DNA of 64,000 bases from an uncultured Gemmatimonadales bacterium (GTDB lineage Bacteria > Gemmatimonadota > Gemmatimonadetes > Gemmatimonadales > GWC2-71-9): assembly GCA_963742755.1 (NCBI GenBank), contig CAVUMU010000011.1, forward strand, positions 256,147 through 320,146. Direction: 5' to 3'. Made by a program: the position numbers and the translations under genes. Below are positions 12,927-48,048 of this stretch, in pieces (position 1 is the first letter of the stretch; each line of letters starts with the position of its first letter). The notes below the pieces were generated by a model. That model was not told where the DNA came from and made no database searches. It saw only the letters and a list, made by a program, of their open reading frames with translations.

Positions 12927-13910
12927 TTACCCGGCGTGAGACGCCTCCTCAGCCATAGGCGTCCGCGAAGTCCGTCCTGCTCGCCGGCCAGTCGGTCTCA
13001 CCACGAGCACCGGGACCTCTGCGGCACGCACCAGCTTATCGGCAACGCTCCCGACCACCAGCCGGTGCAGGCCGCCTCGACCGTGAGTCGCCACGGCTAC
13101 CAGGCTGGTGCGTCCGGGGCGCGCGAGATCCAGCAGCGTTCCGGCGACTCCGGCACCGAGCACCTCCACCCCGGAAGCCTTTACTCCTGACTCCCGCAGG
13201 CGCTCCGCGACGTCCCGGACATAGTCCCGCGCCGATTCGCGCTGGATTCTGGTCATCTGGTCAGAGTAGCCAGTGGGGAAGGGAAGCGGCGGGTCACTCG
13301 CCAGTGGGACAGGGAGGACGACCTGCAGCAGGGAAATTTCCGCATCCCACAACCGGGCGAGGGCAGCCGCAGGCTCGAGGACTGCTTCGGCCAGCGGCGA
13401 CCCATCCAGCGGTACCAATATTTCGCTCAGGCCCACAGAGGATTCGGCTGGCGCGGTCTCGCTTGACCGGACTACCAGGATCGGGACCTCCGACATTCGG
13501 ATAAGCTGATCGGTAATGCTCCCGAGCCATGCGCGGCGGATTCCCCCCCGCCCGTGAGTGGTCATGACCACGAGATCGGCCCCGAGTTCACGGATGTAGG
13601 TCGTGAGAGTCCGAGCCAGCGGCATCCGCCGCAGCACCGCAGAGGAAACCGACCGCCCAAGTCGCTCGCGAAGGCGAGCGGTGACTGACTTCAGGTAGTC
13701 GCGATCAGCCTTCTGCCTGGCAAGCTCAACCTTGGTGTAAGCCGGCCCCGATTCCATCAGCAACAGTGGCTCATGAATGAGCACGAGCTTGAGTTTGCAC
13801 CGAGCCCGCTCGGCGATCGCCTGGGCAATTGGGATGGCTTGCTCGGCTAGCGGTGAGCCGTCGAGCGGCACCAGAATCGACTGAAAGCCTCCAGGGCTTG
13901 AGCGGCTCAT
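12927..13910 (-). CDS. Universal stress protein, tandem USP domains
   Basis: 327 aa with two USP units (ILVPLDGSPLAE...VMTTHGRGGIRRAWLGSITDQL and ILVPLDGSPLAE...VATHGRGGLHRLVVGSVADKL). ATGA overlap with the upstream gene. Confidence 0.9.
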   Translation of the reverse strand: MSRSSPGGFQSILVPLDGSPLAEQAIPIAQAIAERARCKLKLVLIHEPLLLMESGPAYTKVELARQKADRDYLKSVTARLRERLGRSVSSAVLRRMPLARTLTTYIRELGADLVVMTTHGRGGIRRAWLGSITDQLIRMSEVPILVVRSSETAPAESSVGLSEILVPLDGSPLAEAVLEPAAALARLWDAEISLLQVVLPVPLASDPPLPFPTGYSDQMTRIQRESARDYVRDVAERLRESGVKASGVEVLGAGVAGTLLDLARPGRTSLVAVATHGRGGLHRLVVGSVADKLVRAAEVPVLVVRPTGRRAGRTSRTPMAEEASHAG

Positions 13911-14146
13911 GCGTTCCTCCCCGAATGAGATGTCCTGGCCCCGGTTTCACCCCCCGACGAGGTGTTCCGGTGGCCTTTGATCCAGGCATAGACCGGGCAG
14001 AATCCCGTCAGCCCACAGCCTAGAGGGATGAGTCCGAGCAGCGTCAGATAGCTCCACGGCGGCTCGAGCGCGCCGTACAAACCGAGAATCATCACCCCGA
14101 TGATCAGGTGCACGGCCCGCTCGACCCAGCCAGCGTTGCGTCGCAT
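13907..14146 (-). CDS. DUF2892/YgaP-like small membrane protein
   Basis: 79 aa. ERAVHLIIGVMILGLYGA...LLGLIPLGCGLTGFCPVYAWI is typical of the two-TM DUF2892 family. Confidence 0.7.
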   Translation of the reverse strand: MRRNAGWVERAVHLIIGVMILGLYGALEPPWSYLTLLGLIPLGCGLTGFCPVYAWIKGHRNTSSGGETGARTSHSGRNA

Positions 14147-14172
14147 ACGACCTCCCGAGTCTTGGTTGGCGG

Positions 14173-15036
14173 TCAGAGTGGTATGGTCAAGACAGCACAG
14201 GGGGAGGCGTGCGCGATTCGTCGGGCGGTGCTCCCGGCCTCGAGCACACCCGGCGCGCCACCGCGGTGATACCCGATGGCCAGGACATCGGCCCCGCTCT
14301 CTTGCGCCTGCGCCACCACTCGCTCCAGAACGTTACCCCGCTGGATTGCCAGGGGAGCGTCCGGGAAACCTTCCCGCGCCAGTATCTCGCGCACTTGAAG
14401 TTGGAGGGATGCGCTCCGTGTCACCGGCAGCGTGGAAACGATCTGCAAGGGCTCGTCACCGGGTCGCTGTTCGACCGTGATCGCTTCGACAGTACCCCCG
14501 ACATGCCGGGCGAAATCGCAGGACTGGTTCAGCACGTTAATACCGCGGTCGGAGCCGTCCAGCGCCACGAGTACCCTCCTGATCTCGCCTGATCCCGGTG
14601 GTACGAACAGACAGGGGGACCGGGTCCTCCGCGCCACCGCGTCGGCGGTATCGCCCAGCAGGAGTCGCGTCATCGAGGAATGGCGCTTGCGTCCGAGCAC
14701 CAGCAGATCGGTCTCGGCCTGCTCGGCAAAGCGGCAGATCTCGATGCCGGGGACCCCGCAGGCGGTAGCGAGCTCGGCGGCCCGACCCGCATCCGATAAG
14801 AGGACGTCGGGTTCGAGCCACCGGCGCAGATTCGTCAGCGCTACCTCGTCCTCGCCACCGTTCGGATAGGCCATGCCCTGGCTGACGGCCACCAGACGGC
14901 GGCTGGTCTCTACCGCGGTTACCCGCAGGATCGTGACCCGGGCCGACGCCTGCGACGCCAGATCCAGGGCGGTCCTGACTGCCTGGCGGCCGGCATCTGA
15001 CTGGTCGGCTGCGACCAGAATGTGCCGCAGTAACAT
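14173..15036 (-). CDS. Universal stress protein, tandem USP domains
   Basis: 287 aa: ILVAADQSDAGRQAV...LLVLGRKRHSSMTRLLLGDTADAV and VLVALDGSDRG...VLAIGYHRGGAPGVLEAGSTARRI. Confidence 0.9.
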   Translation of the reverse strand: MLLRHILVAADQSDAGRQAVRTALDLASQASARVTILRVTAVETSRRLVAVSQGMAYPNGGEDEVALTNLRRWLEPDVLLSDAGRAAELATACGVPGIEICRFAEQAETDLLVLGRKRHSSMTRLLLGDTADAVARRTRSPCLFVPPGSGEIRRVLVALDGSDRGINVLNQSCDFARHVGGTVEAITVEQRPGDEPLQIVSTLPVTRSASLQLQVREILAREGFPDAPLAIQRGNVLERVVAQAQESGADVLAIGYHRGGAPGVLEAGSTARRIAHASPCAVLTIPL

Positions 15037-15085
15037 TTCCCCCTCCTGTTCCCTTGCTTGGTGATGCAGGGTACGGCGGGGGCCA

Positions 15086-15101
15086 TGAAGAAAGGGTGAA
15101 G
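15086..15101 (-). promoter_or_regulatory. CTTCA-N6-CTTCA direct-repeat site A (upstream of USP 15036; divergent from the kinase)
   Basis: Plus strand TGAAGaaagggTGAAG. Gene sense ggCTTCACcctttCTTCATgg. 49 nt from the ATG. Confidence 0.6.
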
Positions 15102-15158
15102 CCGGCAGGAATATTTTCCGGATTTGGGGCGGCCGAACTTTCGCTGTAGCTTACGAGG

Positions 15159-16397
15159 GTGTCCCCTACCTCCATTCCCCGTCCGGTACCTCCCCGGGTG
15201 CGGCTGGAGCGGCTCGTGGTAGCCGCCTCATCGCTGATCACTGAGGTGTCCCTCGAAGGGGTGCTCGAGCGGGTGGTCGAGGTGGCGGCCGAGGTCATCG
15301 GCGCCCGATACGCAGCCATCGGTGTGCTGGCACCCGATGGGCGGCTCCTGGAAAGCTTTACCACGCACGGCATCGATGCCGAGCATCGTGCGCTCATCGG
15401 AGATCTTCCCCGGGGCCACGGCATTCTGGGACTCGTCATCCGCGCGGCCAGACCGATTCGTCTGCCCGATCTCACCCAACACCCCGACTCCTACGGCTTC
15501 CCGCCGCACCATCCTCCCATGCACTCGTTCCTGGGGGTTCCGATCGTCGGGAAGCGCGGCATCTTCGGGAATCTCTATCTCACCGAGAAGCTGGGCGGCG
15601 AGGCATTCACCGAGGATGACGAGCACATCGCTATTCTGCTGGCCGCCAACACGGCCGCCGCGGTAGAGAATGCCCGCTTGCATGAGGAGAGCGCTCAGCT
15701 GCTGGAGGAAGTGCAGCAGCTCCATCGCAACCGGGAACGCTTCTTCGCCATGGTGAACCACGAGTTGCGGAACGCCCTGGCCGCGGTCCAGGGTTGGTCG
15801 GAAATGATGGTTCGGAAGAAGGACCCCGCAACCGTACCCAAGGCGGCGTTCGAGGTGTTCGACTCGGCGAAACAGGCGGTTGGGCTGATCAACGACTTGC
15901 TCGATCTGAGCCGGCTCGACGAAGACCGCCTTCGACCCGTCATCCGTGCCCACGAAGCGGGCTCCATGGCCCGGCGGGCCCTAGCCCGGGTTACCCCCGC
16001 GGCCGTGGCGAAGGGGGTCAAACTACAATTGGATGTCGCCTCTGATCTCCCCAGCTGCAAGACCGACGCGAGCAGGGTCGAGCAGATCCTGCTCAACTTG
16101 CTGGGCAACGCCATGAATCACGCGCCGGAAGGTAGCACCATCGTTCTCGAGGTCACCGCCCGTGATTCGATGGTGGTCTACACCCTGGAGGACCAGGGAC
16201 CGGGGATCGCGGAGAGTGAAATCGAGCGGGTCTTCGACATCTATGTCACCAAGGACCCGGACGATACCCGTGGCATGGGACTTGGGCTCCCGCTCTCCCG
16301 CCGCCTGGCCCAGCTCCTCGGCGGAGAGCTTCGGGCGGTTGCCCGCCCCGGCCAGGGCGGCTGCTTCATTCTGGAGCTGCCTGGCTCGTGGACGTGA
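15159..16397 (+). CDS. Cytoplasmic GAF-domain sensor histidine kinase
   Basis: GAF region (GHGILGLVIRAARPIRLPDLTQHPDSYGFPPHHPPMHSFLGVPI...GNLYLTEK), H-box FFAMVNHELRNAL, and ATPase N/G boxes (LLNLLGNAMNH, DQGPGI, GMGLGL). No TM segment. GTG start; an alternative GTG lies near 15198. Confidence 0.9.
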   Translation: MSPTSIPRPVPPRVRLERLVVAASSLITEVSLEGVLERVVEVAAEVIGARYAAIGVLAPDGRLLESFTTHGIDAEHRALIGDLPRGHGILGLVIRAARPIRLPDLTQHPDSYGFPPHHPPMHSFLGVPIVGKRGIFGNLYLTEKLGGEAFTEDDEHIAILLAANTAAAVENARLHEESAQLLEEVQQLHRNRERFFAMVNHELRNALAAVQGWSEMMVRKKDPATVPKAAFEVFDSAKQAVGLINDLLDLSRLDEDRLRPVIRAHEAGSMARRALARVTPAAVAKGVKLQLDVASDLPSCKTDASRVEQILLNLLGNAMNHAPEGSTIVLEVTARDSMVVYTLEDQGPGIAESEIERVFDIYVTKDPDDTRGMGLGLPLSRRLAQLLGGELRAVARPGQGGCFILELPGSWT

Positions 16398-16455
16398 AGA
16401 AACCTTCATTGAGGCTTCCCACGGTTCTCACCGATCCGGTGGGAGATTCCCCAGG

Positions 16456-17157
16456 GTGAAAATCCTTGTGGTGGAGGACGACCGGAAGGTCGCCGGGTTC
16501 ATCGAGCAGGGCCTGAAAGAAGAGGGCTACGTGGTGGACGTGGCCGCGGATGGCGACGAGGCGACGCTGCTGGCCCATGTCTACGACTACGACATCATCC
16601 TGCTGGATGTCGTGCTGCCGAAGAAGAATGGTTTCCAGATCGCCACCGAGCTCCGTCGCGAGGGGCGGACCACTCCGATCTTGATGCTGACCTCCCGGGA
16701 CGCGGTCGAGGATGTCGTGCGCGGACTCGACTCGGGCGCGGACGACTACCTGGCAAAGCCGTTTCCCTTCGACGAGCTCCTCGCCCGGATCCGCGCGCTG
16801 CATCGCCGGGGAGGCGCCGAGCGGCTGGAGGTGCTCCGCTATCCACCGATCGCACTCGACCGGCTCCGGCACGTGGCTACGGTCAACGACAAGCGGCTGG
16901 ATCTCACCCCCAAGGAGTTTCAGCTGCTCGAGTATTTCCTGCTTCATCCCGAAGAGGTCGTCCGGCGCACCACGCTCCTGGAGAAGGTATGGGACATGCA
17001 CTTCGATCCGGAGAGCAACGTAGTGGACGTGCATGTGGGCAATCTGCGCCGGAAGCTGACCGAGGGAGCCCAGGAGCAGCTCCTGACCACGGTGCGGGGG
17101 GTGGGGTTCAGCCTCCGCCGCGGCGGGGAAGCCGCAGAGATATTGCCCGCCATCTAG
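16456..17157 (+). CDS. OmpR/PhoB-family response regulator
   Basis: GTG start. VKILVVEDDRKVAGFI...DIILLDVVLPKKNGF...LMLTSRD...DDYLAKPF is the receiver domain. The C-terminal winged helix is LTPKEFQLLEYFLLHPEEVVRRTTLLEKVWD...TVRGVGFSL. Confidence 0.9.
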   Translation: MKILVVEDDRKVAGFIEQGLKEEGYVVDVAADGDEATLLAHVYDYDIILLDVVLPKKNGFQIATELRREGRTTPILMLTSRDAVEDVVRGLDSGADDYLAKPFPFDELLARIRALHRRGGAERLEVLRYPPIALDRLRHVATVNDKRLDLTPKEFQLLEYFLLHPEEVVRRTTLLEKVWDMHFDPESNVVDVHVGNLRRKLTEGAQEQLLTTVRGVGFSLRRGGEAAEILPAI

Positions 17158-17168
17158 CCGCCAGCCGG

Positions 17169-19004
17169 TTGGGCCGGTTCTACCTTCTCCCGGCCGGCGC
17201 TCTCCTTTTCATTCTGACGGGGTTGGTCCTTCATCTCACAGGGCGGCCCGTTGCGGCAGCCCTGCTCTGGAGCGCGGGGCTCGCGATCACCGGGGCGCCG
17301 GTCGTATGGCAGACCCTCCGCGGCATGGCCGGGGGCCGTTTCGCTGCAGACCTGGTGGCGATGCTGGCTATCGTCACCGCCCTCATTCTGCGGGAGCCGC
17401 TTGCCGGGCTCATAGTGGTGCTCATGCAGACCGGCGGCGAGGCACTTGAGCGGTATGCCCAGGGGCGAGCCTCGGAGGCGGTTCGAGACCTGGAAGCGGC
17501 GGCGCCGCGAGTGGCTCATCGCGTAGTGGATGGCGCGGTGGAGGATGTGCCGGCGGAGACCGTGCGGGTCGGCGACAACCTCCTGCTGCGGCCGGGGGAG
17601 CTGTTGGCCTGCGACGCCGTGGTGCTGGAGGGCCGATCCCATGTAGATGCGGCGCGAATCACGGGAGAGCCCGTGCCGGTGAGCGCTTATCCCGGGATAA
17701 CACTGCTCAGCGGCAGTCTCAACCTCGAGGGTCCCCTCACCGTCCGCGCGACGGCCCCCGCCAGCGAGAGCCAGTACGCCCGTATCGTGGAGCTGGTCCG
17801 CAGCGCTCAGGGGAGCAAGTCGCCCCTCCAGCGGCTGGCCGACCGCTACGCCGTCTGGTTCACCCCCATCACCATCGCCGTCTCCGCGGCGACTTATCTC
17901 CTCTCCGGCGACGCCACCCGCGTGCTCGCCGTGCTGGTCGTGGCGACTCCATGCCCTCTTATCCTCGCGACGCCCGTGGCGGTAGTCGGCGGCATCAATC
18001 GCGCGGCGCGCCACGGAATCATTTTCCGCCACGGCACCGCGCTCGAGCAGCTCGGCCGGGTGGCAGTGGCCATCTTCGACAAAACCGGAACACTCACGAT
18101 AGGGCGGCCCGAGGTCGCCCGGGTGCTGACGGTTGCAGAATTCACCGAGGGCGAGATGCTCCGCCTCGCCGGCAGCGTGGAGCATGGGTCCGGCCATCTG
18201 CTCGCTCGAACGCTGGTTCAGTATACGGTCGAGCGCGGAATCGTTCTCCCTCCAGGGGTGCACATCACCGAGGCGCCAGGCCAGGGGGTGAGTGGTGAGG
18301 TGGAAGGTCACTCCGTGACGGTGGGTGGCTGGTCGTTCGTGGTGGGTCGCCATCCCGAGGCCGAGCCAACGCTCCGCGGCTTGCGGGCCCAGACGCAAGG
18401 CGCGGAGCTCAGGGCCTATGTGGCGGTGGATGGACTGGGCGCCGGGTTGATCGAATATGCCGACCGCCTGCGTCCGGAGCTGGCCGGCTTCATTCCGGAG
18501 CTGCGCCGGCTGGGCGTCTCACGGATTGTCCTGCTCTCCGGCGACGATCAGGCTAACGCCACGGCTGTGGGGAACGCGGTCGGGATTGACGAGGTGCAGG
18601 GTGACCTGCTGCCCGGGGCAAAAGTCGCCTACGTGCAGCGGCTGATGAAGGAAGGACAGCGGGTGCTGATGGTGGGCGACGGCACCAACGACGCGCCGGC
18701 ACTCAGCACAGCGACGGTGGGTATCGCGCTCGCCGCCGGTGGAGGCGGAATCACCGCCGAGGCCGCGGATGCGGTGATCCTGGCCGATGACCCGACTCGA
18801 GTCGCCGAGGCCATCAAGATCAGTCGCCGCACCCTCGGAATTGCCCGGCAGAGCATCTGGGCCGGGCTGGGGCTGAGCGGATCTGCCATGGTGGTGGCGA
18901 GCCTCGGCTATATCCCCCCTGTCGCGGGTGCCCTCCTCCAGGAGGCTATTGACGTCGCCGTGATCCTCAATGCCCTGCGCGCCGCCTTCCCCGGGCGGGA
19001 GTGA
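17169..19004 (+). CDS. P1B-type heavy-metal ATPase with PCP transmembrane motif and no N-terminal metal-binding domain
   Basis: VVATPCPLILATP, DKTGTLT and GDGTNDAPAL motifs. The start is uncertain; TTG 17169 is the first plausible start after the regulator stop, and the first ATG is about 17326. Confidence 0.8.
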   Translation: MGRFYLLPAGALLFILTGLVLHLTGRPVAAALLWSAGLAITGAPVVWQTLRGMAGGRFAADLVAMLAIVTALILREPLAGLIVVLMQTGGEALERYAQGRASEAVRDLEAAAPRVAHRVVDGAVEDVPAETVRVGDNLLLRPGELLACDAVVLEGRSHVDAARITGEPVPVSAYPGITLLSGSLNLEGPLTVRATAPASESQYARIVELVRSAQGSKSPLQRLADRYAVWFTPITIAVSAATYLLSGDATRVLAVLVVATPCPLILATPVAVVGGINRAARHGIIFRHGTALEQLGRVAVAIFDKTGTLTIGRPEVARVLTVAEFTEGEMLRLAGSVEHGSGHLLARTLVQYTVERGIVLPPGVHITEAPGQGVSGEVEGHSVTVGGWSFVVGRHPEAEPTLRGLRAQTQGAELRAYVAVDGLGAGLIEYADRLRPELAGFIPELRRLGVSRIVLLSGDDQANATAVGNAVGIDEVQGDLLPGAKVAYVQRLMKEGQRVLMVGDGTNDAPALSTATVGIALAAGGGGITAEAADAVILADDPTRVAEAIKISRRTLGIARQSIWAGLGLSGSAMVVASLGYIPPVAGALLQEAIDVAVILNALRAAFPGRE

Positions 19005-19030
19005 CAACGGGAAAGAGAGATTCCGGCACC

Positions 19031-19046
19031 CTTCAGGATGTCTTCA
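19031..19046 (+). promoter_or_regulatory. CTTCA-N6-CTTCA direct-repeat site F (upstream of the HAD/otsB-GH65 operon)
   Basis: ccCTTCAGgatgtCTTCATgg, 55 nt before ATG 19102. Confidence 0.6.
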
Positions 19047-19101
19047 TGGACCGGGTGCAACCTTACCGCGCATGCGCATGGCACCGACAGGGGGGATAGC
19101 T

Positions 19102-41489: not shown

Positions 41490-41545
41490 GGCAACCTCCA
41501 AGTGAAATCCTCTCCTAAGGTGAGCCGGTAGTGATAAAGCGGGGA

Positions 41546-41561: not shown

Positions 41562-41590
41562 CCCGATTTCCCCGGGGGGGCTGAAGAATT

Positions 41591-41606: not shown

Positions 41607-41666
41607 GCGACGATCCACCTTCGCCCCAGTAGCTTCGGCTTGACTCACACCTGCGGGAGAGTAGCC

Positions 41667-42095
41667 ATGCTGCAACACGCAACCCGATACGGCATCAGTA
41701 CCACCGTGGCCCTGCCATTCGAACCCGCTCTGGCCCGAACCCGCGAGGCCCTCGCGAACGAGGGGTTCGGGGTGCTCACCGAGATCGACGTGACCGCCAC
41801 CCTGCGGAAGAAGCTGGACGTCGAGTTTCGGCCCTACATCATCCTCGGTGCCTGCAACCCGCCCCTGGCCCATCGCGCCCTCCAGGCCGAGCTGGACATC
41901 GGGCTCCTGCTGCCCTGCAACGTCGTGGTTTACGCCACCGACGATCCGGCCCGCACGGTGGTCGCGGCGCTCGACCCGGTCGAGGCCCTGAGTCTGAGCG
42001 GCACGGAGGCCATGCGACCGATCGCGGCAGAAGTCCGAGGCCGGCTGGAGCGGGTGGTGGCGAGCGTCGAAGGCCATGAAGGAGAGTCAGCATGA
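41667..42095 (+). CDS. DUF302-domain protein
   Basis: [68 protein letters not shown] is typical DUF302. ATGA overlap with the next gene. Confidence 0.8.
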
Positions 42096-42358
42096 GCAAC
42101 CAGCGCCGCATCCACGCTGAGGAGGCCAGACAAGTCGGCTCCGCCCTGGGCATCGATTGGACGGTCATCGAGCTGGAACAATTCCGGCGGGGTCTAGAGG
42201 TGGAACTGGAGCACGGGGCCCGGGATCCGGAGACCAATGTGACCAATGACGACCTCGGTCTCACGGGGAAGATCGCCTGGGCGCATCTCAAGGAGTTCCC
42301 GGACTACTACACCCGGCTGGACCGGCTCGAGGCCGAGGCGGACGGCGTTCGCCCGTAG
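42092..42358 (+). CDS. Small conserved hypothetical protein
   Basis: 88 aa, translationally coupled to the DUF302 gene. Has the LEVELEHG...TNVTNDD motif. Family name not recalled with certainty. Confidence 0.6.
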
Positions 42359-42825
42359 CTCTCGATTTCGGCGACCAGCCGGGCCCCTTCTTCTGGAAGC
42401 CGGTCCCGCGGGACGTGCTCGGCGGCGAGCTCGATATGTGAGCACCATTGCCGCAGCATCTGGAGAAACTCGCGGCTGGCCAGCGCAACCGCGGCCGCGG
42501 TCCCGCGGCGGCGCCCAACCAGGTCCAGGGCTTGTCCCAGTTGCGCTATGCGCTCACCCTCCACGGAGAGCTTCTCGGCCGTCTCAGCCGGGAGAAATGG
42601 CCGCATCTCCTTCACCAATGCACGCTCCCGGTCGAATGGCCCCTGAAACTGGTCAGCGAGGTATCGCACCCCGGTCCAGCGCTCCCAGAATCCAGCCGCT
42701 CCTGTGGTGGAAGGAGAGAGAAATAGAGTCGTCTCGCGGAGCCAGATCTCGTGGGCGGCCTTGAGCGTCCGCGCCAGGGATTGATCCTCGGCGGTCTCAG
42801 GTAGTTCCAGGGGACTCGGAGTCAT
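42307..42825 (-). CDS. Hypothetical helical protein
   Basis: GAGG sits 8 nt before ATG 42825. 172 aa, predicted all-helical. Its 3' end overlaps the convergent gene by 52 nt. Confidence 0.5.
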   Translation of the reverse strand: MTPSPLELPETAEDQSLARTLKAAHEIWLRETTLFLSPSTTGAAGFWERWTGVRYLADQFQGPFDRERALVKEMRPFLPAETAEKLSVEGERIAQLGQALDLVGRRRGTAAAVALASREFLQMLRQWCSHIELAAEHVPRDRLPEEGARLVAEIESYGRTPSASASSRSSRV

Positions 42826-42957
42826 GTTTAACCTCGAGTGATTATTGGTTCCATCTTGGGTCGGCGTCTTCGTGGTACGACCCAAGGTAGGCTGCCTGGC
42901 CTGAGTCAGACATGAGGGACGCAGGAAGGTTTCTTCACGCCGCCGGGTGTTCTGCCA

Positions 42958-44040
42958 CTAGCTCCGAGGAGCCGGAGGCTCCTGAAGGAGGCGGAGCGCC
43001 TCTTCGGCGATCCCAGCCTCCTCATCGGTCCGGATCGCGTACACGCGGAGTGGGGAGCCAGTGGCAGAAATACGCTCGTCACCGCGCGCGTTCCGGGTGG
43101 GGTCGAGCCGGAGACCCGCCCACTCAAGAGATCGGCATATCCGCTCCCTGATCGCGGGCGCGTTTTCGCCTATCCCACCAGTGAAGACCAGAGCCTGGGT
43201 CTCGCCCTCGAGCGCGGCCAGGTAAGCTCCGACATATTTCACCGCGCGATAGCAGAAGAGCTCCACCGCCTGCCGGGCTTCCGAGTCGGTTCGCGACAAC
43301 AGCTCTCGCATGTCGGCCGTACCGGCCAGCCCCTTCAACCCTGCCTCGTAGTGCAACAGGTGGCCCAGTCTCTCCCCGTCCCACCCCTGCTCCAGCAGAT
43401 GGAGCAGCACGCCGGGATCGACGTCTCCGGCTCTCGTCCCCATGATCAGCCCTTCGAGAGGGGAATACCCCATCGAGGTGTCGACCGGCTGGCCCCGCCG
43501 GATCGCCGCGGCCGAACACCCGCTGCCCAGATGCAGGCTTACGAATGTCGGCTCCGGTTCCCCGTTCAGGGCCGCCAGACGCTTCATCACAAAGCGATGG
43601 GACCAGCCGTGAAATCCATAACGCCGCACGCCGGACATCGGTGGCAGAGCATAGCGCCGGGCCAGGGGCGGAAGATCGGCGAAAAAGGCGGTATCGAAGG
43701 CGGCCACAAGGGGAACGCCCAGGGCCCTGGTGATCTCGAGCGCGCGCAGTGCCGGAGCGTTATGCAAGGGAGCCAGTGGTGTGAGCTCGGTCAGGGCCCG
43801 GAGAACGTCCTCATCGACGCGAACGACCGCAGCGAAGCGATCGCCTCCGTGTACCACACGGTGAGCCACCGCGTTCGGCCTTGCCGGGAGTGCAGTCAGC
43901 ACCCGGGCAATGAGAGACTCCTCCTCCCCGGGTGTCAGGCCGACCGATGCGGCAGCGAGCAGGCTGAGCTCATGATCCTGCGCCTGATAGAGCTTGTACT
44001 TGAGACTGGTGCTTCCGCAGTTGATCACCAGGAGCCGCAT
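42958..44040 (-). CDS. ackA: Acetate/propionate kinase
   Basis: MRLLVINCGSTSLKYKLY, HRVVHGG, APLHNP, RYGFHGWSH, LHLGSGCS, DTSMGYSPLEGLIMGTRAGDVDPG and FTGGIGENA. Compact at 360 aa. Confidence 0.85.
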   Translation of the reverse strand: MRLLVINCGSTSLKYKLYQAQDHELSLLAAASVGLTPGEEESLIARVLTALPARPNAVAHRVVHGGDRFAAVVRVDEDVLRALTELTPLAPLHNAPALRALEITRALGVPLVAAFDTAFFADLPPLARRYALPPMSGVRRYGFHGWSHRFVMKRLAALNGEPEPTFVSLHLGSGCSAAAIRRGQPVDTSMGYSPLEGLIMGTRAGDVDPGVLLHLLEQGWDGERLGHLLHYEAGLKGLAGTADMRELLSRTDSEARQAVELFCYRAVKYVGAYLAALEGETQALVFTGGIGENAPAIRERICRSLEWAGLRLDPTRNARGDERISATGSPLRVYAIRTDEEAGIAEEALRLLQEPPAPRS

Positions 44041-44282: not shown

Positions 44283-45296
44283 CTAAGCCAGCAGGACCTG
44301 GTCCACCGATCGCCTGGGCGTGTGCCGCTTTTCGGGACACATCGCGTAACCAATCCGGAGGAACTGCTGCGGCACCCATCCACTCGCCGGAATAACCCGC
44401 CCCAGCTCCGCCCGCAGAGATGGGATCTCCAGCGCTTGGCTCATCGGCTGCAGGGCGAGACCTATGCCGGTGGCATGCAGCCACAGGCGCTCCAGAGCCT
44501 GGCCGGTGCGGATCTGAGAAACTCGGTCATCGGTCCGAGTGCTGATCAGGCCGACCAACGGGGCGCTCGACAAAAGGGCGGCGTTCCGTCTCCCGATTAC
44601 TCGACCCAGATTCAATCGTGTCAGCAGGAAGCCAGTCAGCCGCGACGGAAGGCGAGGGGTCCCGAAAACTCCTTGTCTCACCCAGTGCCCCAGTTCGTTC
44701 CGGAACGCCGGGTCTGCGAATTCCATTTCATCGGCATGCAGATTCAGCTCGACCACTCGGAACCGGATCGCTGGATCGTCTAGCAGATCCACTCGCAGTC
44801 CGGGGGCGGTGCAGCGGTCCAGGAGATGTTGCCGCACTTCGCTCGCCACCGGCTCGTCGCGGTAGAGTCCATGGTGGGTACGCCGAGCCGTAATCGCGCC
44901 GAGAGCAAGCCCGCTCCGGTCAGGCGGTGCCTGGGCACCATCCGGATGGAAGGTGACAGTTGCCGCGAGCTCCTCATTCGTGGATTGGGGGAAGTAACTG
45001 ACCTCCGCACGGAACCCGAACTGCTCACCTGCGAGAAGCATATTCTCCAGCGCGCAGCCCAGGCTGATGTAGAGCTCCCGCCGCCCCCGGTCCGCCACCT
45101 GCTGCCACCGAGTCAGGTCGGCGAATACGCCGATTGTGTTCTCGCCGATCGAAAACCGCCACGGCTGGGTGTTCTTGGTCGAGGGCGCCAGCACCGCATA
45201 GCGGAGCAGAAACTCGAGCTGCTTCTGCATGGGGAATATCGCAGGGAATTGGTGGGGCGAGACCTCCCAGGGTGAAGGCGTGCTCAATGTGGTCAT
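44283..45296 (-). CDS. Acg-family nitroreductase-fold protein
   Basis: 337 aa, double nitroreductase-like fold. LEFLLRYAVLAPSTKNTQPWRF...LGCALENMLLA...GQALERLWLHATGIGLALQPMSQ resembles Acg/Rv3131-type proteins. Confidence 0.8.
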   Translation of the reverse strand: MTTLSTPSPWEVSPHQFPAIFPMQKQLEFLLRYAVLAPSTKNTQPWRFSIGENTIGVFADLTRWQQVADRGRRELYISLGCALENMLLAGEQFGFRAEVSYFPQSTNEELAATVTFHPDGAQAPPDRSGLALGAITARRTHHGLYRDEPVASEVRQHLLDRCTAPGLRVDLLDDPAIRFRVVELNLHADEMEFADPAFRNELGHWVRQGVFGTPRLPSRLTGFLLTRLNLGRVIGRRNAALLSSAPLVGLISTRTDDRVSQIRTGQALERLWLHATGIGLALQPMSQALEIPSLRAELGRVIPASGWVPQQFLRIGYAMCPEKRHTPRRSVDQVLLA

Positions 45297-45301
45297 GTCG
45301 C

Positions 45302-45703
45302 CTACAGCCGGCCGGTTGCTACCGCACGCACGATGTCCGTCGTGGAGATCACGCCGACCATCCGGTCCCCGTCCACGACGAACAGCCGATGAACGTCGCC
45401 GTAGAGCATTTCCTGAGCGGCTTGCTTGACCGTCGCATCCGGCGCGATGATCATGGGCCGAGGGGTCATGAGGTCCCGCACGAAGGTTCCCTCGAACAGC
45501 GTTGCCCGCGCCGCCTGATCTTCAGCCTCCTCCTCCGCCGCCAGGATGTCGGTCGTGGAAATCACCCCGACCAGGCGGCCGCCCTGATCCACGACCCCCA
45601 ATCCCGAGACATGGGACTCGGCCAGGCTGACCACGGCATCGTTCACGACGGCATCAAGGGGCACGGTTTGCACATCGGTTTGCATCAGCTCGGATATTTT
45701 CAT
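45302..45703 (-). CDS. CBS-pair domain protein
   Basis: 133 aa with two CBS units (VVNDAVVSLAESHVSGLGVVDQGGRLVGVISTTDIL and TVKQAAQEMLYGDVHRLFVVDGDRMVGVISTTDIV). Confidence 0.9.
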   Translation of the reverse strand: MKISELMQTDVQTVPLDAVVNDAVVSLAESHVSGLGVVDQGGRLVGVISTTDILAAEEEAEDQAARATLFEGTFVRDLMTPRPMIIAPDATVKQAAQEMLYGDVHRLFVVDGDRMVGVISTTDIVRAVATGRL

Positions 45704-45750
45704 GGTGACTTCCTTTCGAATCGAGATCTCTCAATCTGCGAGCCCGAGGC

Positions 45751-45777
45751 TGAATCCACGGTGAAGCCGGTATGAAG
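45751..45777 (-). promoter_or_regulatory. Triple 11-bp-phased repeat site C (upstream of the CBS-acg operon)
   Basis: Plus strand TGAATccacggTGAAGccggtaTGAAG. Gene sense CTTCAtaccggCTTCAccgtggATTCA. 48 nt from the ATG. Confidence 0.6.
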
Positions 45778-45797
45778 GCTTCTTTCCCATTGGGAAC

Positions 45798-45824
45798 CTT
45801 CCACCCCGCTTCATGCTTCTTTCA
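45798..45824 (+). promoter_or_regulatory. Triple 11-bp-phased repeat site I (upstream of secreted-protein gene 45951)
   Basis: CTTCCaccccgCTTCAtgcttcTTTCA, about 125 nt before the ATG. Confidence 0.45.
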
Positions 45825-45950
45825 TGCCCGCCGGATGAGATTGCCTTTGAAGACCGGCTCGGGATCGGCCCGAGCTTACTCGCTTCCGACCTGGAGGACC
45901 CGGGAGGATGCCGGGGTATCAGGATCAATGAGGCACAGGAGGATTTCCAT

Positions 45951-46499: not shown

Positions 46500-46525
46500 G
46501 GAGGCGGGGTCTGAACCCGCGGCTG

Positions 46526-46846
46526 GTGATCCTGGCAACCGTCGTGGTGGGGGTCGCGGCTTGGGTGAGCTACCGCACCAGCAGCGAGGTCTCGCGCGAC
46601 TCCCAAGTGGTCGATCCGGCGGGCGAGGTCAAGGGACGGGCGCTTATCGTCTTTCACCCTGGCCTGAGTGACTTTCCCGATAGTGTCACCATGGCGTTCG
46701 CGCGGGGTCTTTCCAGCCAGGGTTGGCAGGTGGAGCTGGCGACCGCCTCGGCCCGGGCCCCGAGCCCGGTAGACCGGTACGACCTCCTCGCGGTGGCGTA
46801 CCAAGCGGGACGCCGGATCGCTGCTCCGAGTAGCGCTGCCAAGTAG
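46526..46846 (+). pseudogene. Probable truncated membrane-anchored flavodoxin-like gene
   Basis: A TM anchor is followed by GRALIVFHPGLSDFPDSVTMAFARGL...DRYDLLAV. The frame ends about halfway through the expected fold. Confidence 0.35.
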
Positions 46847-46856
46847 CTGCTCGGCT

Positions 46857-47153
46857 TTGCGTATCGCCGCGGCACTCCCGCTGTGGATCGCGATCCAGGA
46901 AGGCCGGCTCCAACTGGTACTGGCGCTGCTTGGATTCGCCGCCGTTACCGATCTGGTGGACGGCCCCCTGGCCCGCCGGCTCGGCGCGGTGACCGGGTGG
47001 GGTGCCTACCTCGACGTGACCGCTGATTTCCTGGTGCTCATGATCGCCTTCGCCGGTTTTGTCCACCTCGATATCTATCCGGCCTGGCTCCTGGTTCTCC
47101 TGGCCGCCATGTTCGCCCAGTTCCTGCTGACGTCCCGCTTCAGGGGAGCTTGA
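46857..47153 (+). pseudogene. Truncated CDP-alcohol phosphatidyltransferase
   Basis: The signature D-x2-DG-x2-AR-x8-G-x3-D-x3-D is present (TDLVDGPLARRLGAVTGWGAYLDVTAD). Only about 98 codons remain, there is no clear start, and the 3' end runs into the convergent USP gene. Confidence 0.45.
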
Positions 47154-48048
47154 ACGAAACCCGGGCGGGCCTCGCCACCAGGACATCGCACGCCGCCGCC
47201 TGGAGGACCCACTCGGCCACACTGCCGAGCAAGGCGTGCGAGAGACCGCATCGGCCGTGGGTGCCGACCGCGATCAGGTCTGCCCGACGCCGATCGGCCT
47301 GGGCAATAATGACCGCCCGGGGATCGCCGTGCACGACCACCCCACGCCAGCGGACACGGTCTTCGCCCAGCGACGATCGAAGTTTCATGAGAGCAGCGGC
47401 GGCTGCCTGCCTGGAATCCCTCCGGAGACCGGCCATATCTCCGGGCGGGATGGAGGGCGTGATCAAACCCTCGAAGGGCAGCCGGTACGCGTGGAGCAGG
47501 GTCGCGGCCTTCACCTCGGGCCCGAGAACGCGCAACCCGGTGGTCACGACTGATCGGGAGGTGTCCTCGAGATCTACGGCGAGCACCGGCTGGCGATAGT
47601 TCCGCGTGGCCGCGCGGCTCACGACCAGGACGGGCAGGTCTCCCGCCCGGATCACCCGGTCGGCGGTCGAGCCGATGAACATGTCTCTCACCGGCCGCCG
47701 GCTATGGCGCCCGAGCACAATCAGATCGGCCCCGGCGGACCTCGCCTGCCGGACGATTTCGACGTAGGCTTGCCCCCGGAACAAGGCGGACGCGACCCGG
47801 ATGTGGCCCCGGCCGCGAGCTGAAGGCGAATGGGAGAGGGCGGTCACCGCGCTCTCGAGCTGCCGGCGTGCGGCCTGCGCGGCGCGGGAGAGCGTCTTCC
47901 TGGGAAGTTGGCCGGGCAGCACGTGCGCGATGGATATTTTGCCGCCGTCGACCAGAGGCAGACGTCCTGCCCGCGCGACGGCCCGAGCCGCACCAGGGGA
48001 GAAATCTGTCGCCACGAAGATATGCCGGAAGGGCGCCGGTGTGCTCAT
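47140..48048 (-). CDS. Universal stress protein, tandem USP domains
   Basis: 302 aa: IFVATDFSPGAARAV...LIVLGRHSRRPVRDMFIGSTADRV and VLAVDLEDTS...LIAVGTHGRCGLSHALLGSVAEWV. ATGA overlap with nhaA. Confidence 0.9.
   Translation of the reverse strand: MSTPAPFRHIFVATDFSPGAARAVARAGRLPLVDGGKISIAHVLPGQLPRKTLSRAAQAARRQLESAVTALSHSPSARGRGHIRVASALFRGQAYVEIVRQARSAGADLIVLGRHSRRPVRDMFIGSTADRVIRAGDLPVLVVSRAATRNYRQPVLAVDLEDTSRSVVTTGLRVLGPEVKAATLLHAYRLPFEGLITPSIPPGDMAGLRRDSRQAAAAALMKLRSSLGEDRVRWRGVVVHGDPRAVIIAQADRRRADLIAVGTHGRCGLSHALLGSVAEWVLQAAACDVLVARPARVSFKLP

What the first reader, a model, noticed from the sequence alone, without database searches (positions are those of the whole stretch)
12927..48048. 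35-kb cluster mirroring the mycobacterial DosR dormancy regulon, but with an OmpR-type rather than NarL-type regulator
Seen in sequence:
- Four tandem-domain USPs and a GAF sensor kinase.
- A HAD/beta-PGM + trehalose phosphatase coupled to GH65.
- A P2-type cation ATPase.
- An Acg-type nitroreductase and two CBS-pair proteins.
- A phosphoribosyltransferase followed by a dienelactone hydrolase.
- Fermentative or energy-sparing enzymes (PEP synthase, D-2-hydroxyacid dehydrogenase, acetate kinase).

From my recollection of the M. tuberculosis DosR regulon, these correspond to Rv1996/Rv2005c/Rv2623/Rv2624c/Rv3134c (USPs), DevS/DosT (GAF kinases), Rv2006 otsB1 (a HAD-TPP-GH65 fusion), Rv1997 ctpF, Rv2032 acg/Rv3127/Rv3131, Rv2626c hrp1, and Rv0571c (PRTase + hydrolase in one protein).

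Here the set is physically contiguous. Its only two-component regulator is OmpR-family, not the NarL-family DosR. That would mean a dormancy-type gene set has been recruited under a different regulator class.
Basis: partly seen in the sequence, partly recalled or inferred. Interest (0 to 1): 0.7.

Follow-up and report, generated by a model that had tools for sequence, protein, structure and literature searches.

The report
Haem-sensor stress regulon of Gemmatimonadota
A soil bacterium of the phylum Gemmatimonadota carries a ~33-kb block of stress-survival genes resembling the tuberculosis "dormancy" set, apparently controlled by a DosT-type haem (oxygen/NO) sensor kinase paired with a different class of DNA-binding regulator, through a repeated TGAAG box in front of about ten of its operons.

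Summary
The window (67% GC, Gemmatimonadales) encodes four tandem USPs, two CBS-pair proteins, an Acg-family nitroreductase, HAD/beta-PGM-trehalose phosphatase + GH65, a P2 and a P1B ATPase, PEP synthase, D-2-hydroxyacid dehydrogenase, acetate kinase, PRTase + alpha/beta-hydrolase, and one two-component pair.

New evidence supports the interpretation:
- The kinase's single GAF domain matches the haem GAF-A of DosT (E=1e-44) and keeps the proximal His, distal Tyr and DosT-type gate Gly. Its transmitter is HisKA and its partner is OmpR-type.
- There are no DosR boxes.
- An 11-bp-period direct repeat, TGAAG-N6-TGAAG(-N6-GAAg), occurs 17 times (1.75 expected). All 21 top PWM hits are intergenic and lie between 15085 and 45825.
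- The box is conserved beside the kinase-regulator pair in 80 other Gemmatimonadota loci. It sits exactly 12 bp upstream of a TAnnnT -10 element.

Most likely a haem-based O2/NO sensor phosphorylates an OmpR-type activator that switches on a hypoxia-survival regulon.

Caveats:
- The 35-kb contiguity is not conserved elsewhere.
- Most gene matches to M. tuberculosis are at family level only.
- Haem binding, DNA binding and induction are inferred.
- Precedents exist in the Streptomyces OsdKR cluster and the Burkholderia lxa locus.

Verdict: a new variant of a known kind.

The parts
12927..13910 (-). Tandem-domain universal stress protein (USP1). Last gene of the USP2-YgaP-USP1 operon.
   Evidence: Pfam Usp E=6e-49, two stretches. 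4-nt overlap with the upstream gene.
13907..14146 (-). Small YgaP-like transmembrane protein.
   Evidence: Pfam PF11127 E=2e-12. Homologue beside the kinase in 20 of 81 loci.
14173..15036 (-). Tandem-domain USP2, divergent from the kinase. The most conserved predicted target.
   Evidence: Pfam Usp E=9e-37. Homologue in 54 of 81 loci. Conserved box-N12-TAnnnT promoter.
15085..15124 (+). Triple direct repeat TGAAG-N6-TGAAG-N6-GGAAT. On the USP2 strand it is followed, 12 bp on, by the -10-like TACCCT.
   Evidence: Best PWM score in the window, 29.9. Conserved in 31 anchored loci.
15159..16397 (+). Soluble sensor kinase: one DosT-type haem GAF (nt 15252-15692), HisKA (15732-15923), HATPase (16065-16382). 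Key residues: Gly55, His118, Tyr140, His201.
   Evidence: Pfam. PDB 2VZW E=1.2e-44 with residue alignment. Residue numbering.
16392..16431 (-). Box in the 58-bp kinase-regulator gap. On the + strand it reads TGAAG-N4-CTTCA-N6-CTTCC.
   Evidence: PWM 21.1. A minus-oriented site just after the kinase recurs in many loci.
16456..17157 (+). OmpR/PhoB-family response regulator (receiver + winged helix).
   Evidence: Pfam Response_reg E=4e-29 and Trans_reg_C E=4e-26. Best PDB hits are DrrD, PrrA, BasR and MtrA. Present in 75 of 81 loci at a median 85% identity.
17154..19004 (+). P1B-type heavy-metal ATPase without an N-terminal metal-binding domain. Carries a TPCP transmembrane motif and overlaps the regulator stop codon.
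   Evidence: NCBIfam TIGR01525 503 bits against a cut-off of 346. Motif at aa 265-268. Present in 43 of 81 loci.
19008..19047 (-). Box upstream of the HAD-trehalose phosphatase/GH65 operon.
   Evidence: PWM 28.0. Exact TGAAG-N6-TGAAG.
19102..20740 (+). beta-Phosphoglucomutase-family HAD + trehalose-phosphatase gene. The reading frame is broken by one base in the G5 run at 20282-20286.
   Evidence: Pfam and NCBIfam. Frame analysis.
20737..23217 (+). GH65 glycoside hydrolase/phosphorylase. Its start overlaps the preceding gene.
   Evidence: Pfam GH65 N, middle and C domains, E=4e-130.
23218..23257 (-). Triple box upstream of CBS1.
   Evidence: PWM 27.8 and 11.1.
23328..23765 (+). CBS-pair protein 1. 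The 86-aa ORF at 23782-24042 lies downstream.
   Evidence: Pfam CBS E=3e-21, two stretches.
24113..25030 (-). Tandem-domain USP3, divergent from PEP synthase.
   Evidence: Pfam Usp E=7e-55.
25059..25118 (.). Two oppositely oriented boxes, one facing USP3 and one facing PEP synthase.
   Evidence: PWM 20.4 (+) and 18.3 (-).
25173..27707 (+). PEP synthase (pyruvate, water dikinase). The start lies between 25173 and 25308.
   Evidence: NCBIfam NF005057 1091 bits against a cut-off of 598.
27735..30431 (+). P2A-type (Ca-type) cation ATPase.
   Evidence: Pfam Cation_ATPase_N and Cation_ATPase_C. TIGR01522 695 bits, below the equivalog cut-off.
30428..31429 (+). Na+/Ca2+ exchanger-family protein. Its start overlaps the ATPase stop.
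   Evidence: Pfam Na_Ca_ex E=2e-35. Start codon.
31426..32451 (+). D-isomer-specific 2-hydroxyacid dehydrogenase. Its start overlaps the preceding stop.
   Evidence: Pfam 2-Hacid_dh_C E=8e-56. Start codon.
34842..35105 (+). Two strong boxes (34853-34881 and 35066-35094) in a 430-bp gene-free stretch upstream of the remnant ORF, ABC2, DUF2231 and DedA genes (32521-34771, minus strand).
   Evidence: PWM 28.0 and 27.6. No convincing ORF and no Rfam match.
39922..41501 (-). PRTase (40842-41501) and alpha/beta-hydrolase (39922-40845) with overlapping stop and start codons.
   Evidence: Pfam Pribosyltran E=2e-19. The DLH match is weak, E=0.003. Start codons.
41534..41618 (.). Box cluster between PRTase and DUF302. 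TGAAT-N6-TGAAA faces PRTase. TGAAG-N4-CTTCA-N6-CTTCA-N23-TAGCTT faces DUF302.
   Evidence: PWM 24.3, 16.0, 12.5 and 12.3. Geometry.
41667..42358 (+). DUF302 and DUF5661 proteins.
   Evidence: Pfam E=4e-25 and 6e-21.
42307..42940 (-). Conserved hypothetical protein of 192 aa (42307-42885), with a box (TGAAG-N4-CTTCC) at 42912-42940.
   Evidence: PWM 18.0. Homologues are box-preceded in 6 other loci.
42958..44040 (-). Acetate/propionate kinase with an intact N-terminus. A weak box lies at 44075-44103.
   Evidence: TIGR00016 305 bits against a cut-off of 293. N-terminus MRLLVINCGSTSLKY. PWM 13.6.
44283..45296 (-). Acg-family FMN-binding nitroreductase, 5 bp downstream of CBS2.
   Evidence: NF047509 256 bits against a cut-off of 199. 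PDB 2YMV E=1.3e-20.
45302..45703 (-). CBS-pair protein 2.
   Evidence: Pfam CBS E=5e-26.
45750..45825 (.). Two oppositely oriented triple boxes, one facing CBS2-Acg and one facing the secreted Met-rich ORF at 45951-46499.
   Evidence: PWM 21.8 and 21.1 (+), 25.8 (-).
47140..48048 (-). Tandem-domain USP4. It overlaps the end of NhaA (48045-49433) and has no box, so membership of the regulon is doubtful.
   Evidence: Pfam. No PWM hit of 12 or more in 49434-49512.

Best explanation
This is a hypoxia/NO-type stress-survival regulon of a Gemmatimonadales bacterium. It is governed by a two-component system that joins a DosT-type haem GAF sensor to a HisKA kinase and an OmpR/PhoB-type regulator.

Proposed mechanism:
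1. The soluble kinase (15159-16397) binds haem through His118. Tyr140 contacts the distal ligand. The gate residue is Gly55, as in the O2-binding DosT. Loss of O2, or binding of NO/CO, switches on autophosphorylation at His201.
2. The phosphoryl group passes to the regulator (16456-17157).
3. The regulator binds two or three head-to-tail TGAAG repeats spaced 11 bp apart.
4. Read on the strand of the target gene, the site is CTTCA-N6-CTTCA followed after exactly 12 bp by a TAnnnT -10 element. The site therefore takes the place of a -35 element, and the regulator acts as a PhoB-like class II activator.

Predicted targets in the window:
- USP2-YgaP-USP1.
- The regulator itself with the P1B ATPase.
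- HAD-trehalose phosphatase-GH65.
- CBS1.
- USP3.
- PEP synthase-P2 ATPase-Na/Ca exchanger-2-hydroxyacid dehydrogenase.
- PRTase-hydrolase.
- DUF302-DUF5661.
- The 192-aa ORF.
- CBS2-Acg, perhaps with acetate kinase.
- A secreted Met-rich protein.
- Probably the ABC2-DUF2231-DedA operon.

Shown: the domain architectures, the residue conservation, the motif with its enrichment, periodicity, orientation and distance to the -10, and its conservation in relatives.

Inferred: haem binding, the ligand, that this regulator binds the box, that it activates, and the physiological outcome.
For: Sensor:
- The GAF domain matches DosT GAF-A (2VZW) at E=1.2e-44 and DevS at E~2e-37.
- Query G55, H118 and Y140 align with DosT Gly85, His147 and Tyr169. 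The roles of these residues are described in PMC4082495.
- In an alignment of 74 representatives with this GAF type, the His is invariant and the Tyr is at least 90% conserved.

Output module:
- The kinase has HisKA with H-box NHELRN, and the regulator has Trans_reg_C.

Motif in the window:
- TGAAG-N6-TGAAG with up to 1 mismatch gives 17 hits against 1.75 expected. None of 100 shuffles reaches 17.
- Exact TGAAG pairs peak only at a gap of 6: 7 observed against about 0.03 expected.
- PWM scores of 12 or more give 21 hits against 1.4 expected. All are intergenic and lie between 15085 and 45825.

Motif in relatives:
- 243 hits against 26 expected in 82 loci, 1.13 Mb.
- Three repeats plus a -10 element are conserved at the USP|kinase promoter in 31 loci whose kinases are as little as ~60% identical.

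Geometry:
- TAnnnT lies exactly 12 bp downstream of CTTCA-N6-CTTCA in 66 of 218 sites and at 22/23 bp in 26 more. No other distance has more than 4, and the control orientation has no more than 7.
- The result holds without the conserved USP|kinase sites: 42 and 26 of 187.

Orientation:
- Among sites with a single candidate target, 41 fit the rule and 13 do not.

Box-preceded genes in relatives fit an O2/NO theme:
- USPs, CBS proteins, Acg, Hsp20, and clade II nosZ in 9 of 11 loci that carry nosZ.

Other:
- No DosR boxes and no other regulator of a two-component system in the window.
- A USP was induced at 10% O2 in Gemmatimonas phototrophica (PMC11406998).
- OmpR-family regulators that use 11-bp-spaced direct repeats to control oxygen-related regulons are established, for example ArcA (PMC3798270, PMC4173790).
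Against: - There is no experimental datum for this organism. Haem binding, phosphotransfer and DNA binding are all inferred from homology and position.
- DosT haem-contact residue Tyr98 is Thr here, and some other contact residues differ.
- This GAF type is fused to many output modules, so ligand and sign of the response may differ from DosT.
- The box could belong to another regulator encoded elsewhere in the genome. Only 64 kb of a contig of at least 390 kb was seen.
- Several window sites have only an xAnnnT or no clear -10 at 12 bp.
- One strong site (35066-35094) has no visible target.
- The site at 36544 is probably a ribosome-binding site plus start codon by chance.
- A site overlapping -35 could in principle repress.
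- The 35-kb contiguity is absent in relatives.
Confidence: 0.7

Rival explanations
1. The box is real, but another transcription factor encoded outside the window binds it, such as a different OmpR-family regulator. The GAF kinase/regulator pair would then be just one more target of that factor, not the master regulator.
For: Only 64 kb of the genome is visible. Nothing in the sequence ties the recognition helix to TGAAG. Related locus L002 carries a Crp-family gene nearby. Two inverted TGAAG-N4-CTTCA arrangements also occur.
Against: The box is conserved on both sides of the kinase and in the fixed 58-bp kinase-regulator gap in most of 80 loci. That is the usual signature of autoregulation. 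Direct repeats with an 11-bp period fit winged-helix OmpR/PhoB regulators, not Crp/Fnr dimers. No other candidate regulator is conserved next to the boxes.
Confidence: 0.15
2. The kinase senses something other than a diatomic gas, such as redox state, a small metabolite, or no haem at all. The regulon would then be a general stationary-phase or osmotic/ionic stress response rather than a hypoxia/NO response.
For: The cluster and its flank are rich in ion transporters: two P-type ATPases, a Na/Ca exchanger, NhaA and a Kef-type exchanger. Trehalose-related enzymes fit osmotic stress. Haem-contact Tyr98 of DosT is not conserved. DevS itself is debated as a redox sensor (PMC4082495).
Against: About half of the aligned residues are identical to DosT GAF-A, with the axial His, distal Tyr and gate Gly conserved. 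Box-preceded nosZ, Acg, USPs and Hsp20 in relatives point to O2/NO. NhaA, the Kef-type exchanger and USP4 lack the box.
Confidence: 0.15
3. The regulator represses. The boxes overlap the -35 region so as to block RNA polymerase, and the genes are expressed when the regulator is unphosphorylated.
For: The site covers about -51 to -25 relative to the -10. ArcA, an OmpR-family oxygen-related regulator with the same repeat architecture, acts mainly as a repressor (PMC3798270, PMC4173790).
Against: No -35-like hexamer is conserved at these promoters. The distance to the -10 is fixed to the base pair. That is typical of activator-dependent promoters such as PhoB pho boxes, by established knowledge. 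A repressor has no need for exact phasing and orientation.
Confidence: 0.15
4. There is no regulon. The cluster is a chance neighbourhood of common stress genes, and the TGAAG repeats are a compositional or assembly artefact.
For: USPs, CBS pairs and P-type ATPases are common. The cluster contains gene remnants and an apparent frameshift. Its contiguity is not conserved.
Against: Tenfold or greater enrichment over shuffles, a single sharp spacing peak, exclusively intergenic placement, fixed distance to a -10, and conservation in 80 independent genomes.
Confidence: 0.02

Closest known systems
Mycobacterium tuberculosis DosS(DevS)/DosT-DosR(DevR) system and its ~48-gene dormancy regulon
   Same: The sensor is a soluble kinase with a haem-type GAF domain homologous to GAF-A, with the axial His, distal Tyr and DosT-type Gly conserved. 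The target set shares families: tandem USPs, Acg-family nitroreductase, CBS-pair protein and P2 ATPase. By recollection it also shares HAD-TPP-GH65 and PRTase + hydrolase. Hsp20 and ferredoxin occur in relatives.
   Different: One GAF instead of GAF-A + GAF-B. HisKA instead of HisKA_3. An OmpR/PhoB winged-helix regulator instead of NarL/LuxR. Direct repeats with an 11-bp period instead of the palindromic DosR box, which is absent. A different phylum. USP and CBS proteins are not specific orthologues.
Streptomyces coelicolor OsdK/OsdR and the SCO0167-SCO0219 region (PMC5069765)
   Same: A physically contiguous cluster around the two-component genes, with many USPs, a nitroreductase and a divergent USP | pyruvate-phosphate-dikinase pair (here USP3 | PEP synthase). 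The regulator's box sits in front of most operons and of its own gene.
   Different: OsdR is a DevR orthologue (NarL type) that binds a DevR-like GC-rich palindrome. The organism is an actinobacterium, and nar genes are included.
Burkholderia cenocepacia low-oxygen-activated (lxa) locus (PMC3721108)
   Same: A non-actinobacterial, contiguous 50-gene locus with six USPs, nitroreductase, cation ATPase, acetate kinase and alpha-crystallin. A shared promoter motif occurs at 17 intergenic points. Its authors explicitly compared it with the DosR regulon. It is a precedent for a DosR-like gene set under another regulator class.
   Different: The lxa motif is an Anr/FNR-like inverted repeat, TGA-N6-TCA, and the candidate regulators are Crp/Fnr proteins. 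No DosT-type haem GAF sensor is reported there.
OmpR/PhoB-family oxygen/redox regulators using tandem direct repeats: E. coli ArcB/ArcA (PMC3798270, PMC4173790); PhoB-type class II activation
   Same: A winged-helix regulator. Two or three, or more, direct repeats with 11-bp spacing. The site overlaps or replaces the -35 at a fixed distance from the -10. Control of an oxygen-related regulon.
   Different: The input is a haem GAF, not quinone-sensing ArcB or PhoR. The half-site sequence is TGAAG. ArcA is mainly a repressor.

Membership tests
DosS/DosT-type haem sensor kinases | GAF-A-type domain with the proximal His ligand (DosT His147 / DosS His149) and the distal Tyr (Tyr169 / Tyr171) | tested here: met
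   E=1.2e-44 to 2VZW. H118 and Y140 align with His147 and Tyr169, and Gly55 aligns with DosT Gly85. Residue roles from PMC4082495.
DosS/DosT-type haem sensor kinases | Tandem GAF-A + GAF-B followed by a HisKA_3 dimerisation/phosphoacceptor domain | tested here: not met
   A single GAF, then HisKA (PF00512) with H-box NHELRN. Among 74 representatives with this GAF type, 32 carry HisKA_3 and 20 carry HisKA.
DosS/DosT-type haem sensor kinases | Haem bound, and kinase activity gated by O2/NO/CO | not testable with these tools
   Needs a spectroscopic and autophosphorylation assay.
DosR/DevR regulon (regulatory definition) | NarL/LuxR-family response regulator (GerE helix-turn-helix) | tested here: not met
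   The regulator has Trans_reg_C, and its best PDB hits are DrrD, PrrA, BasR and MtrA. No receiver-GerE protein is encoded in the window.
DosR/DevR regulon (regulatory definition) | Palindromic DosR box (core GGGAC-N4-GTCCC) upstream of the targets | tested here: not met
   5 hits at up to 1 mismatch against 6.2 expected. None sits in a cluster promoter.
DosR/DevR regulon (gene content) | Tandem USPs, Acg-family nitroreductase, CBS-pair protein, P2 ATPase, otsB1-like HAD-TPP-GH65, Rv0571c-like PRTase + hydrolase | tested here: inconclusive
   All families are present. Acg passes the NCBIfam Rv3131/Acg model. USP and CBS proteins are generic: Rv2623 is only a 1e-10 hit and Hrp1 is not found. 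The domain make-up of Rv2006, Rv0571c and CtpF was recalled, not compared here.
DosR/DevR regulon (physiology) | Co-induction by hypoxia, NO or CO, and a role in non-replicating survival | not testable with these tools
   The only indirect hint is that a USP is induced at 10% O2 in G. phototrophica (PMC11406998).
OmpR/PhoB-family two-component system | HisKA kinase plus a receiver/winged-helix regulator encoded together | tested here: met
   The pair is conserved with a 58-bp gap in the related loci L001 and L002, and the regulator is present in 75 of 81 loci.
OmpR/PhoB-family two-component system | Target sites are tandem direct repeats with a period of about one helical turn, phased with the promoter | tested here: met
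   11-bp period. Three repeats. A fixed 12-bp distance to TAnnnT.
OmpR/PhoB-family two-component system | This regulator binds these repeats | not testable with these tools
   Inferred from conserved boxes at its own locus.
Acg-family FMN-binding nitroreductase | Passes the curated family model, with a full-length two-lobed nitroreductase fold | tested here: met
   NF047509 256 bits against a cut-off of 199, aa 30-335 of 337. PDB 2YMV aligned over aa 31-335.
lxa-type low-oxygen locus (Burkholderia) | Anr/FNR-type regulator and an inverted-repeat TGA-N6-TCA motif | tested here: not met
   No Crp/Fnr-family protein is encoded in the window. The shared element is a direct repeat. The TGA-N6-TCA pattern itself was not scanned.

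The most novel reading that the evidence does not exclude
Gemmatimonadota, abundant soil bacteria and N2O consumers, use a phylum-wide, so far undescribed oxygen/NO switch. A DosT-type haem GAF is fused to a HisKA kinase and signals to an OmpR-type activator through a TGAAG direct-repeat box. This switch controls both a DosR-like survival gene set and, in many species, the clade II nitrous-oxide reductase gene. The 'dormancy regulon' would then be a modular gene set that unrelated phyla have independently placed under at least three regulator classes (NarL, Fnr/Anr, OmpR). The DosS/DosT sensor domain would be an old, mobile module rather than an actinobacterial speciality.
Probability: 0.5. 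Interest if true: 0.75.

Novelty: new variant of a known kind. Interest (0 to 1): 0.65.

Why it matters
- It extends the DosS/DosT haem-sensor paradigm outside Actinomycetota. The same sensor domain can be wired to a different output class with a different DNA code while ending at a very similar set of survival genes. That informs how stress regulons are assembled and rewired.
- It gives a concrete, testable regulon for a poorly studied but abundant soil phylum: a kinase, a regulator, a 27-bp box with fixed promoter geometry, and about ten operons.
- In relatives the same box precedes clade II nosZ. The system is therefore a candidate for the unknown oxygen control of N2O reduction in Gemmatimonadota, a process relevant to greenhouse-gas budgets.
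- The box and its geometry can be used at once to predict regulon members in hundreds of metagenome-assembled genomes.

Tried and rejected
- **DosR box.** A scan for GGGAC-N4-GTCCC found nothing above chance, so I rejected control by a DevR-like regulator through the mycobacterial motif.
- **Gene calls for the window's own contig.** Look-ups with the kinase and CBS2 proteins found nothing on record, so I set gene starts by hand.
- **Rfam.** A scan of the window found only two tRNAs. No riboswitch or sRNA explains the gene-free stretch 34772-35202.
- **CBS2 as an Hrp1 (Rv2626c) orthologue.** Not supported. Only generic CBS-pair hits were found.
- **USPs as Rv2623 orthologues.** Only a weak, non-best hit.
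- **Multicopper oxidase as NirK.** The 355-aa box-preceded multicopper oxidase in relatives looked like NirK, but it scores 88 bits against a cut-off of 296. Rejected.
- **Site at 36544-36572.** It is made of the GSDH ribosome-binding site plus GTG-AAG-AAG codons, so I treated it as chance. The site at 45686-45714 is likewise the CBS2 RBS and ATG.
- **Acetate kinase as N-terminally truncated.** Rejected. The canonical N-terminus is present.
- **Literature.** Searches for a described DosT-like GAF/OmpR system or a Gemmatimonadota oxygen sensor found none in the held library.

Full report
**What is in the sequence**

The window is about 67% G+C throughout. I called genes from the codon-position GC pattern and scanned them with Pfam and NCBIfam. 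Every item in the finding is present:
- four USPs with two Usp domains each;
- a GAF-HisKA-HATPase kinase (15159-16397), followed after 58 bp by an OmpR-type regulator (16456-17157);
- a beta-PGM-family HAD/trehalose phosphatase gene whose end overlaps a GH65 gene;
- a P2A-type ATPase;
- an Acg-family nitroreductase (NF047509, 256 bits against a cut-off of 199; its only PDB hit is Acg 2YMV);
- two CBS-pair proteins;
- a PRTase whose stop overlaps the start of an alpha/beta-hydrolase (the dienelactone-hydrolase match is weak);
- PEP synthase, a D-2-hydroxyacid dehydrogenase and an acetate kinase.

No other two-component protein and no NarL-type regulator is encoded in the 64 kb.

**Origin**

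The kinase has hundreds of homologues at 80-86% identity. Those that carry a name are from Gemmatimonadales MAGs. A scan of one genome per species returned 80 loci, all Gemmatimonadota, with kinases 60-85% identical. At least 442 stretches encode relatives. This is therefore a phylum-typical system, not an actinobacterial one.

**The sensor**

The single GAF domain matches the crystallised haem GAF-A domains of DosT (2VZW, E=1.2e-44) and DevS (E~2e-37), with about half of the aligned residues identical to DosT. In the residue alignment:
- DosT His147, the proximal haem ligand, aligns with His118;
- DosT Tyr169, the distal ligand contact, aligns with Tyr140;
- DosT Gly85 (Glu87 in DevS) aligns with Gly55.

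The roles of these residues are taken from PMC4082495. Some other contact residues differ, for example DosT Tyr98 is Thr here.

The transmitter differs from DosS/DosT. It is HisKA, with H-box NHELRN and His201, not HisKA_3, and there is no second GAF.

An exhaustive search with the GAF domain found 1669 cluster representatives at E<=1e-30. Among 74 of the shorter top hits, 32 carry HisKA_3, 20 carry HisKA, and a few carry HWE or GGDEF outputs. The His is invariant and the Tyr nearly so. HisKA versions also occur in Actinomycetota, for example Euzebya rosea. The haem GAF is thus a mobile module. The literature searches found no description of the HisKA/OmpR wiring.

**The cis-element**

The mycobacterial DosR box is absent. 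I aligned the divergent USP|kinase promoter with two related contigs. This exposed TGAAGAAAGGGTGAAG, a direct repeat with an 11-bp period.

In the window:
- TGAAG-N6-TGAAG with up to 1 mismatch occurs 17 times against 1.75 expected, and none of 100 shuffles reaches 17.
- Exact half-site pairs show one sharp peak at a gap of 6: 7 observed against about 0.03 expected.
- A PWM built from 239 sites in the related loci shows a third, weaker repeat.
- Scanning the window with that PWM gives 21 hits at a score of 12 or more, against 1.4 expected. All are intergenic and all lie between 15085 and 45825.
- The other 29 kb of the window has none.

In 82 loci (1.13 Mb) there are 243 hits against 26 expected. 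One site upstream of the kinase and one in the kinase-regulator gap recur in most loci.

**Promoter geometry**

I anchored 31 loci on the box. Read on the USP strand, the conserved pattern is three repeats (CTTCg-N6-TTCA-N6-CTTCA), a 12-bp spacer and TAnnnT.

Over all 218 sites, TAnnnT lies exactly 12 bp downstream in 66 and at 22/23 bp (one repeat further) in 26. No other distance has more than 4, and the opposite orientation has no more than 7. Without the conserved USP|kinase sites the figures are 42 and 26 of 187. Where only one flanking gene is a candidate target, the orientation rule holds 41 times against 13.

A site covering about -51 to -25, with no conserved -35 hexamer and base-exact phasing, is the architecture of activator-dependent promoters of the PhoB type. 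Tandem 11-bp repeats are also used by ArcA, the OmpR-family oxygen-related regulator of E. coli (PMC3798270, PMC4173790).

**Predicted regulon in the window**

These assignments use the operon structure from overlapping or closely spaced genes:
- USP2-YgaP-USP1
- the regulator with the P1B ATPase
- HAD-TPP-GH65
- CBS1 (with an 86-aa ORF)
- USP3
- PEP synthase-P2 ATPase-Na/Ca exchanger-2-hydroxyacid dehydrogenase
- PRTase-hydrolase, possibly continuing into the radical-SAM and DUF4130/DUF72 DNA-repair-like genes
- DUF302-DUF5661
- a conserved 192-aa ORF
- CBS2-Acg, perhaps with acetate kinase behind a weak site
- a secreted Met-rich ORF
- probably the ABC2-DUF2231-DedA operon

NhaA-USP4 and GSDH have no credible box.

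**Relatives**

Only USP | kinase-regulator-P1B ATPase is a conserved neighbourhood: regulator 75 of 81 loci, USP2 54, ATPase 43, Acg 11. The trehalose genes, PEP synthase and acetate kinase are found next to the kinase in 0-1 loci. The long contiguous arrangement is therefore particular to this genome.

The window also contains gene remnants and an apparent frameshift, which suggests mosaic assembly.

Box-preceded genes elsewhere are mostly USPs (64), the regulator (26), homologues of the 192-aa ORF (6), CBS proteins (5) and Acg (2). Others are Hsp20, GroEL, a two-domain multicopper oxidase, PQQ dehydrogenases, a PAS-GGDEF-EAL protein and an AMP/thymidine phosphorylase. Clade II nosZ lies 2-4 kb from the kinase in 11 loci, with a correctly oriented strong box in 9 of them. 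The window itself has no nosZ.

**Interpretation**

The most likely reading is a haem-based O2/NO sensor that phosphorylates an OmpR-type activator, which switches on a hypoxia-type survival regulon.
- Shown: the architectures, the residue conservation and the cis-element statistics.
- Inferred: haem binding, the ligand, the identity of the box-binding protein, activation, and physiology.

Rival readings are that another factor binds the box, that the signal is not a gas, or that the regulator represses. None is excluded, and each is less well supported.

**Comparison with known systems**

Functionally the system resembles DosRST on the input side and in its target gene families. It fails the membership tests for the transmitter, the regulator class and the DNA motif. 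It is therefore not a DosRST orthologue but a rewired relative.

The idea of a contiguous DosR-like cluster is not new. Streptomyces OsdKR has one with a DevR-type regulator and motif (PMC5069765). The Burkholderia lxa locus has one under an Anr/Fnr-like motif (PMC3721108). What is new is a third wiring: the DosT-type sensor retained, an OmpR-type output, a defined box and promoter geometry, another phylum, and a link to nosZ.

I rate it a new variant of a known kind, interest 0.65.

Noticed in passing
window 20282-20286: The HAD/trehalose-phosphatase gene changes reading frame inside a GGGGG run. Removing or adding one G restores a continuous phosphatase sequence (…VLDGAFAELRDG…). This is either a real pseudogene-making mutation or a homopolymer error of a long-read assembly.
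   Followed up: partly
window 34586-34771 (-) and 36697-36888 (+): Two short ORFs with coding-like composition. By eye, the first (61 aa) resembles the C-terminal end of an ABC-transporter ATPase, and the second (63 aa) the end of a methyltransferase-like gene. Neither has a Pfam hit, and the rest of each gene is missing. They may be scars of rearrangement inside the cluster.
   Followed up: partly
window 34772-35202: A 430-bp stretch without a convincing ORF or Rfam match carries two of the five best boxes. The one at 35066-35094 has no visible target gene in the expected direction. It may point to an unannotated small gene or sRNA.
   Followed up: partly
window 17154-19004: The P1B ATPase that is conserved directly downstream of the regulator (43 of 81 loci) lacks an N-terminal metal-binding domain. 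It has the transmembrane motif TPCP instead of CPC. From memory this is the signature of the little-studied P1B-5 (Ni/Fe-type) group, some members of which carry an O2-binding hemerythrin domain. None is present here.
   Followed up: partly
L010:6117-8282, L016:4283-6425, L028:6-2135 and eight further loci: Clade II (Sec-dependent) nitrous-oxide reductase nosZ sits 2-4 kb from the GAF kinase in 11 of 81 Gemmatimonadales loci. In 9 of them it is preceded by a correctly oriented TGAAG direct-repeat box. The system may control N2O reduction in these species.
   Followed up: yes
L002:14066-16415: In a related genome the kinase-regulator-ATPase core is followed by Hsp20 (box-preceded), a CBS-pair protein and a baeRF (eRF1-like) protein, with a ferredoxin and a Crp-family gene upstream. 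From memory these are further parallels to DosR-regulon members (hspX, fdxA, Rv2629).
   Followed up: no
window 56382-57745 (-): An ECF sigma factor and an RskA-type anti-sigma factor pair. A thioredoxin-fold/AhpC-TSA protein (58134-58973) and a classical nitroreductase (59287-59964) lie nearby. None carries a TGAAG box.
   Followed up: no
window 1854-7265 (-), 3744-3901 (+): A MalT-like LuxR-TPR regulator without a receiver domain and a 1068-aa Ser/Thr kinase with TPR repeats flank tRNA-Ala(CGC) and tRNA-Gln(CTG). No integrase or other sign of an island boundary was seen.
   Followed up: no
window 15140-15160 and the corresponding positions in 31 loci: A -10-like element (TAGCTT, TAGAAT, TACTAT) lies only about 7-12 nt upstream of the kinase start codon in many loci. 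This suggests a leaderless or very short-leader kinase mRNA from a promoter separate from the box-dependent USP promoter.
   Followed up: no
window 45951-46499 (+): A box-preceded ORF with a signal peptide and a Met/His-rich, low-complexity mature part. It has no family match and may be a periplasmic metal-binding protein.
   Followed up: no
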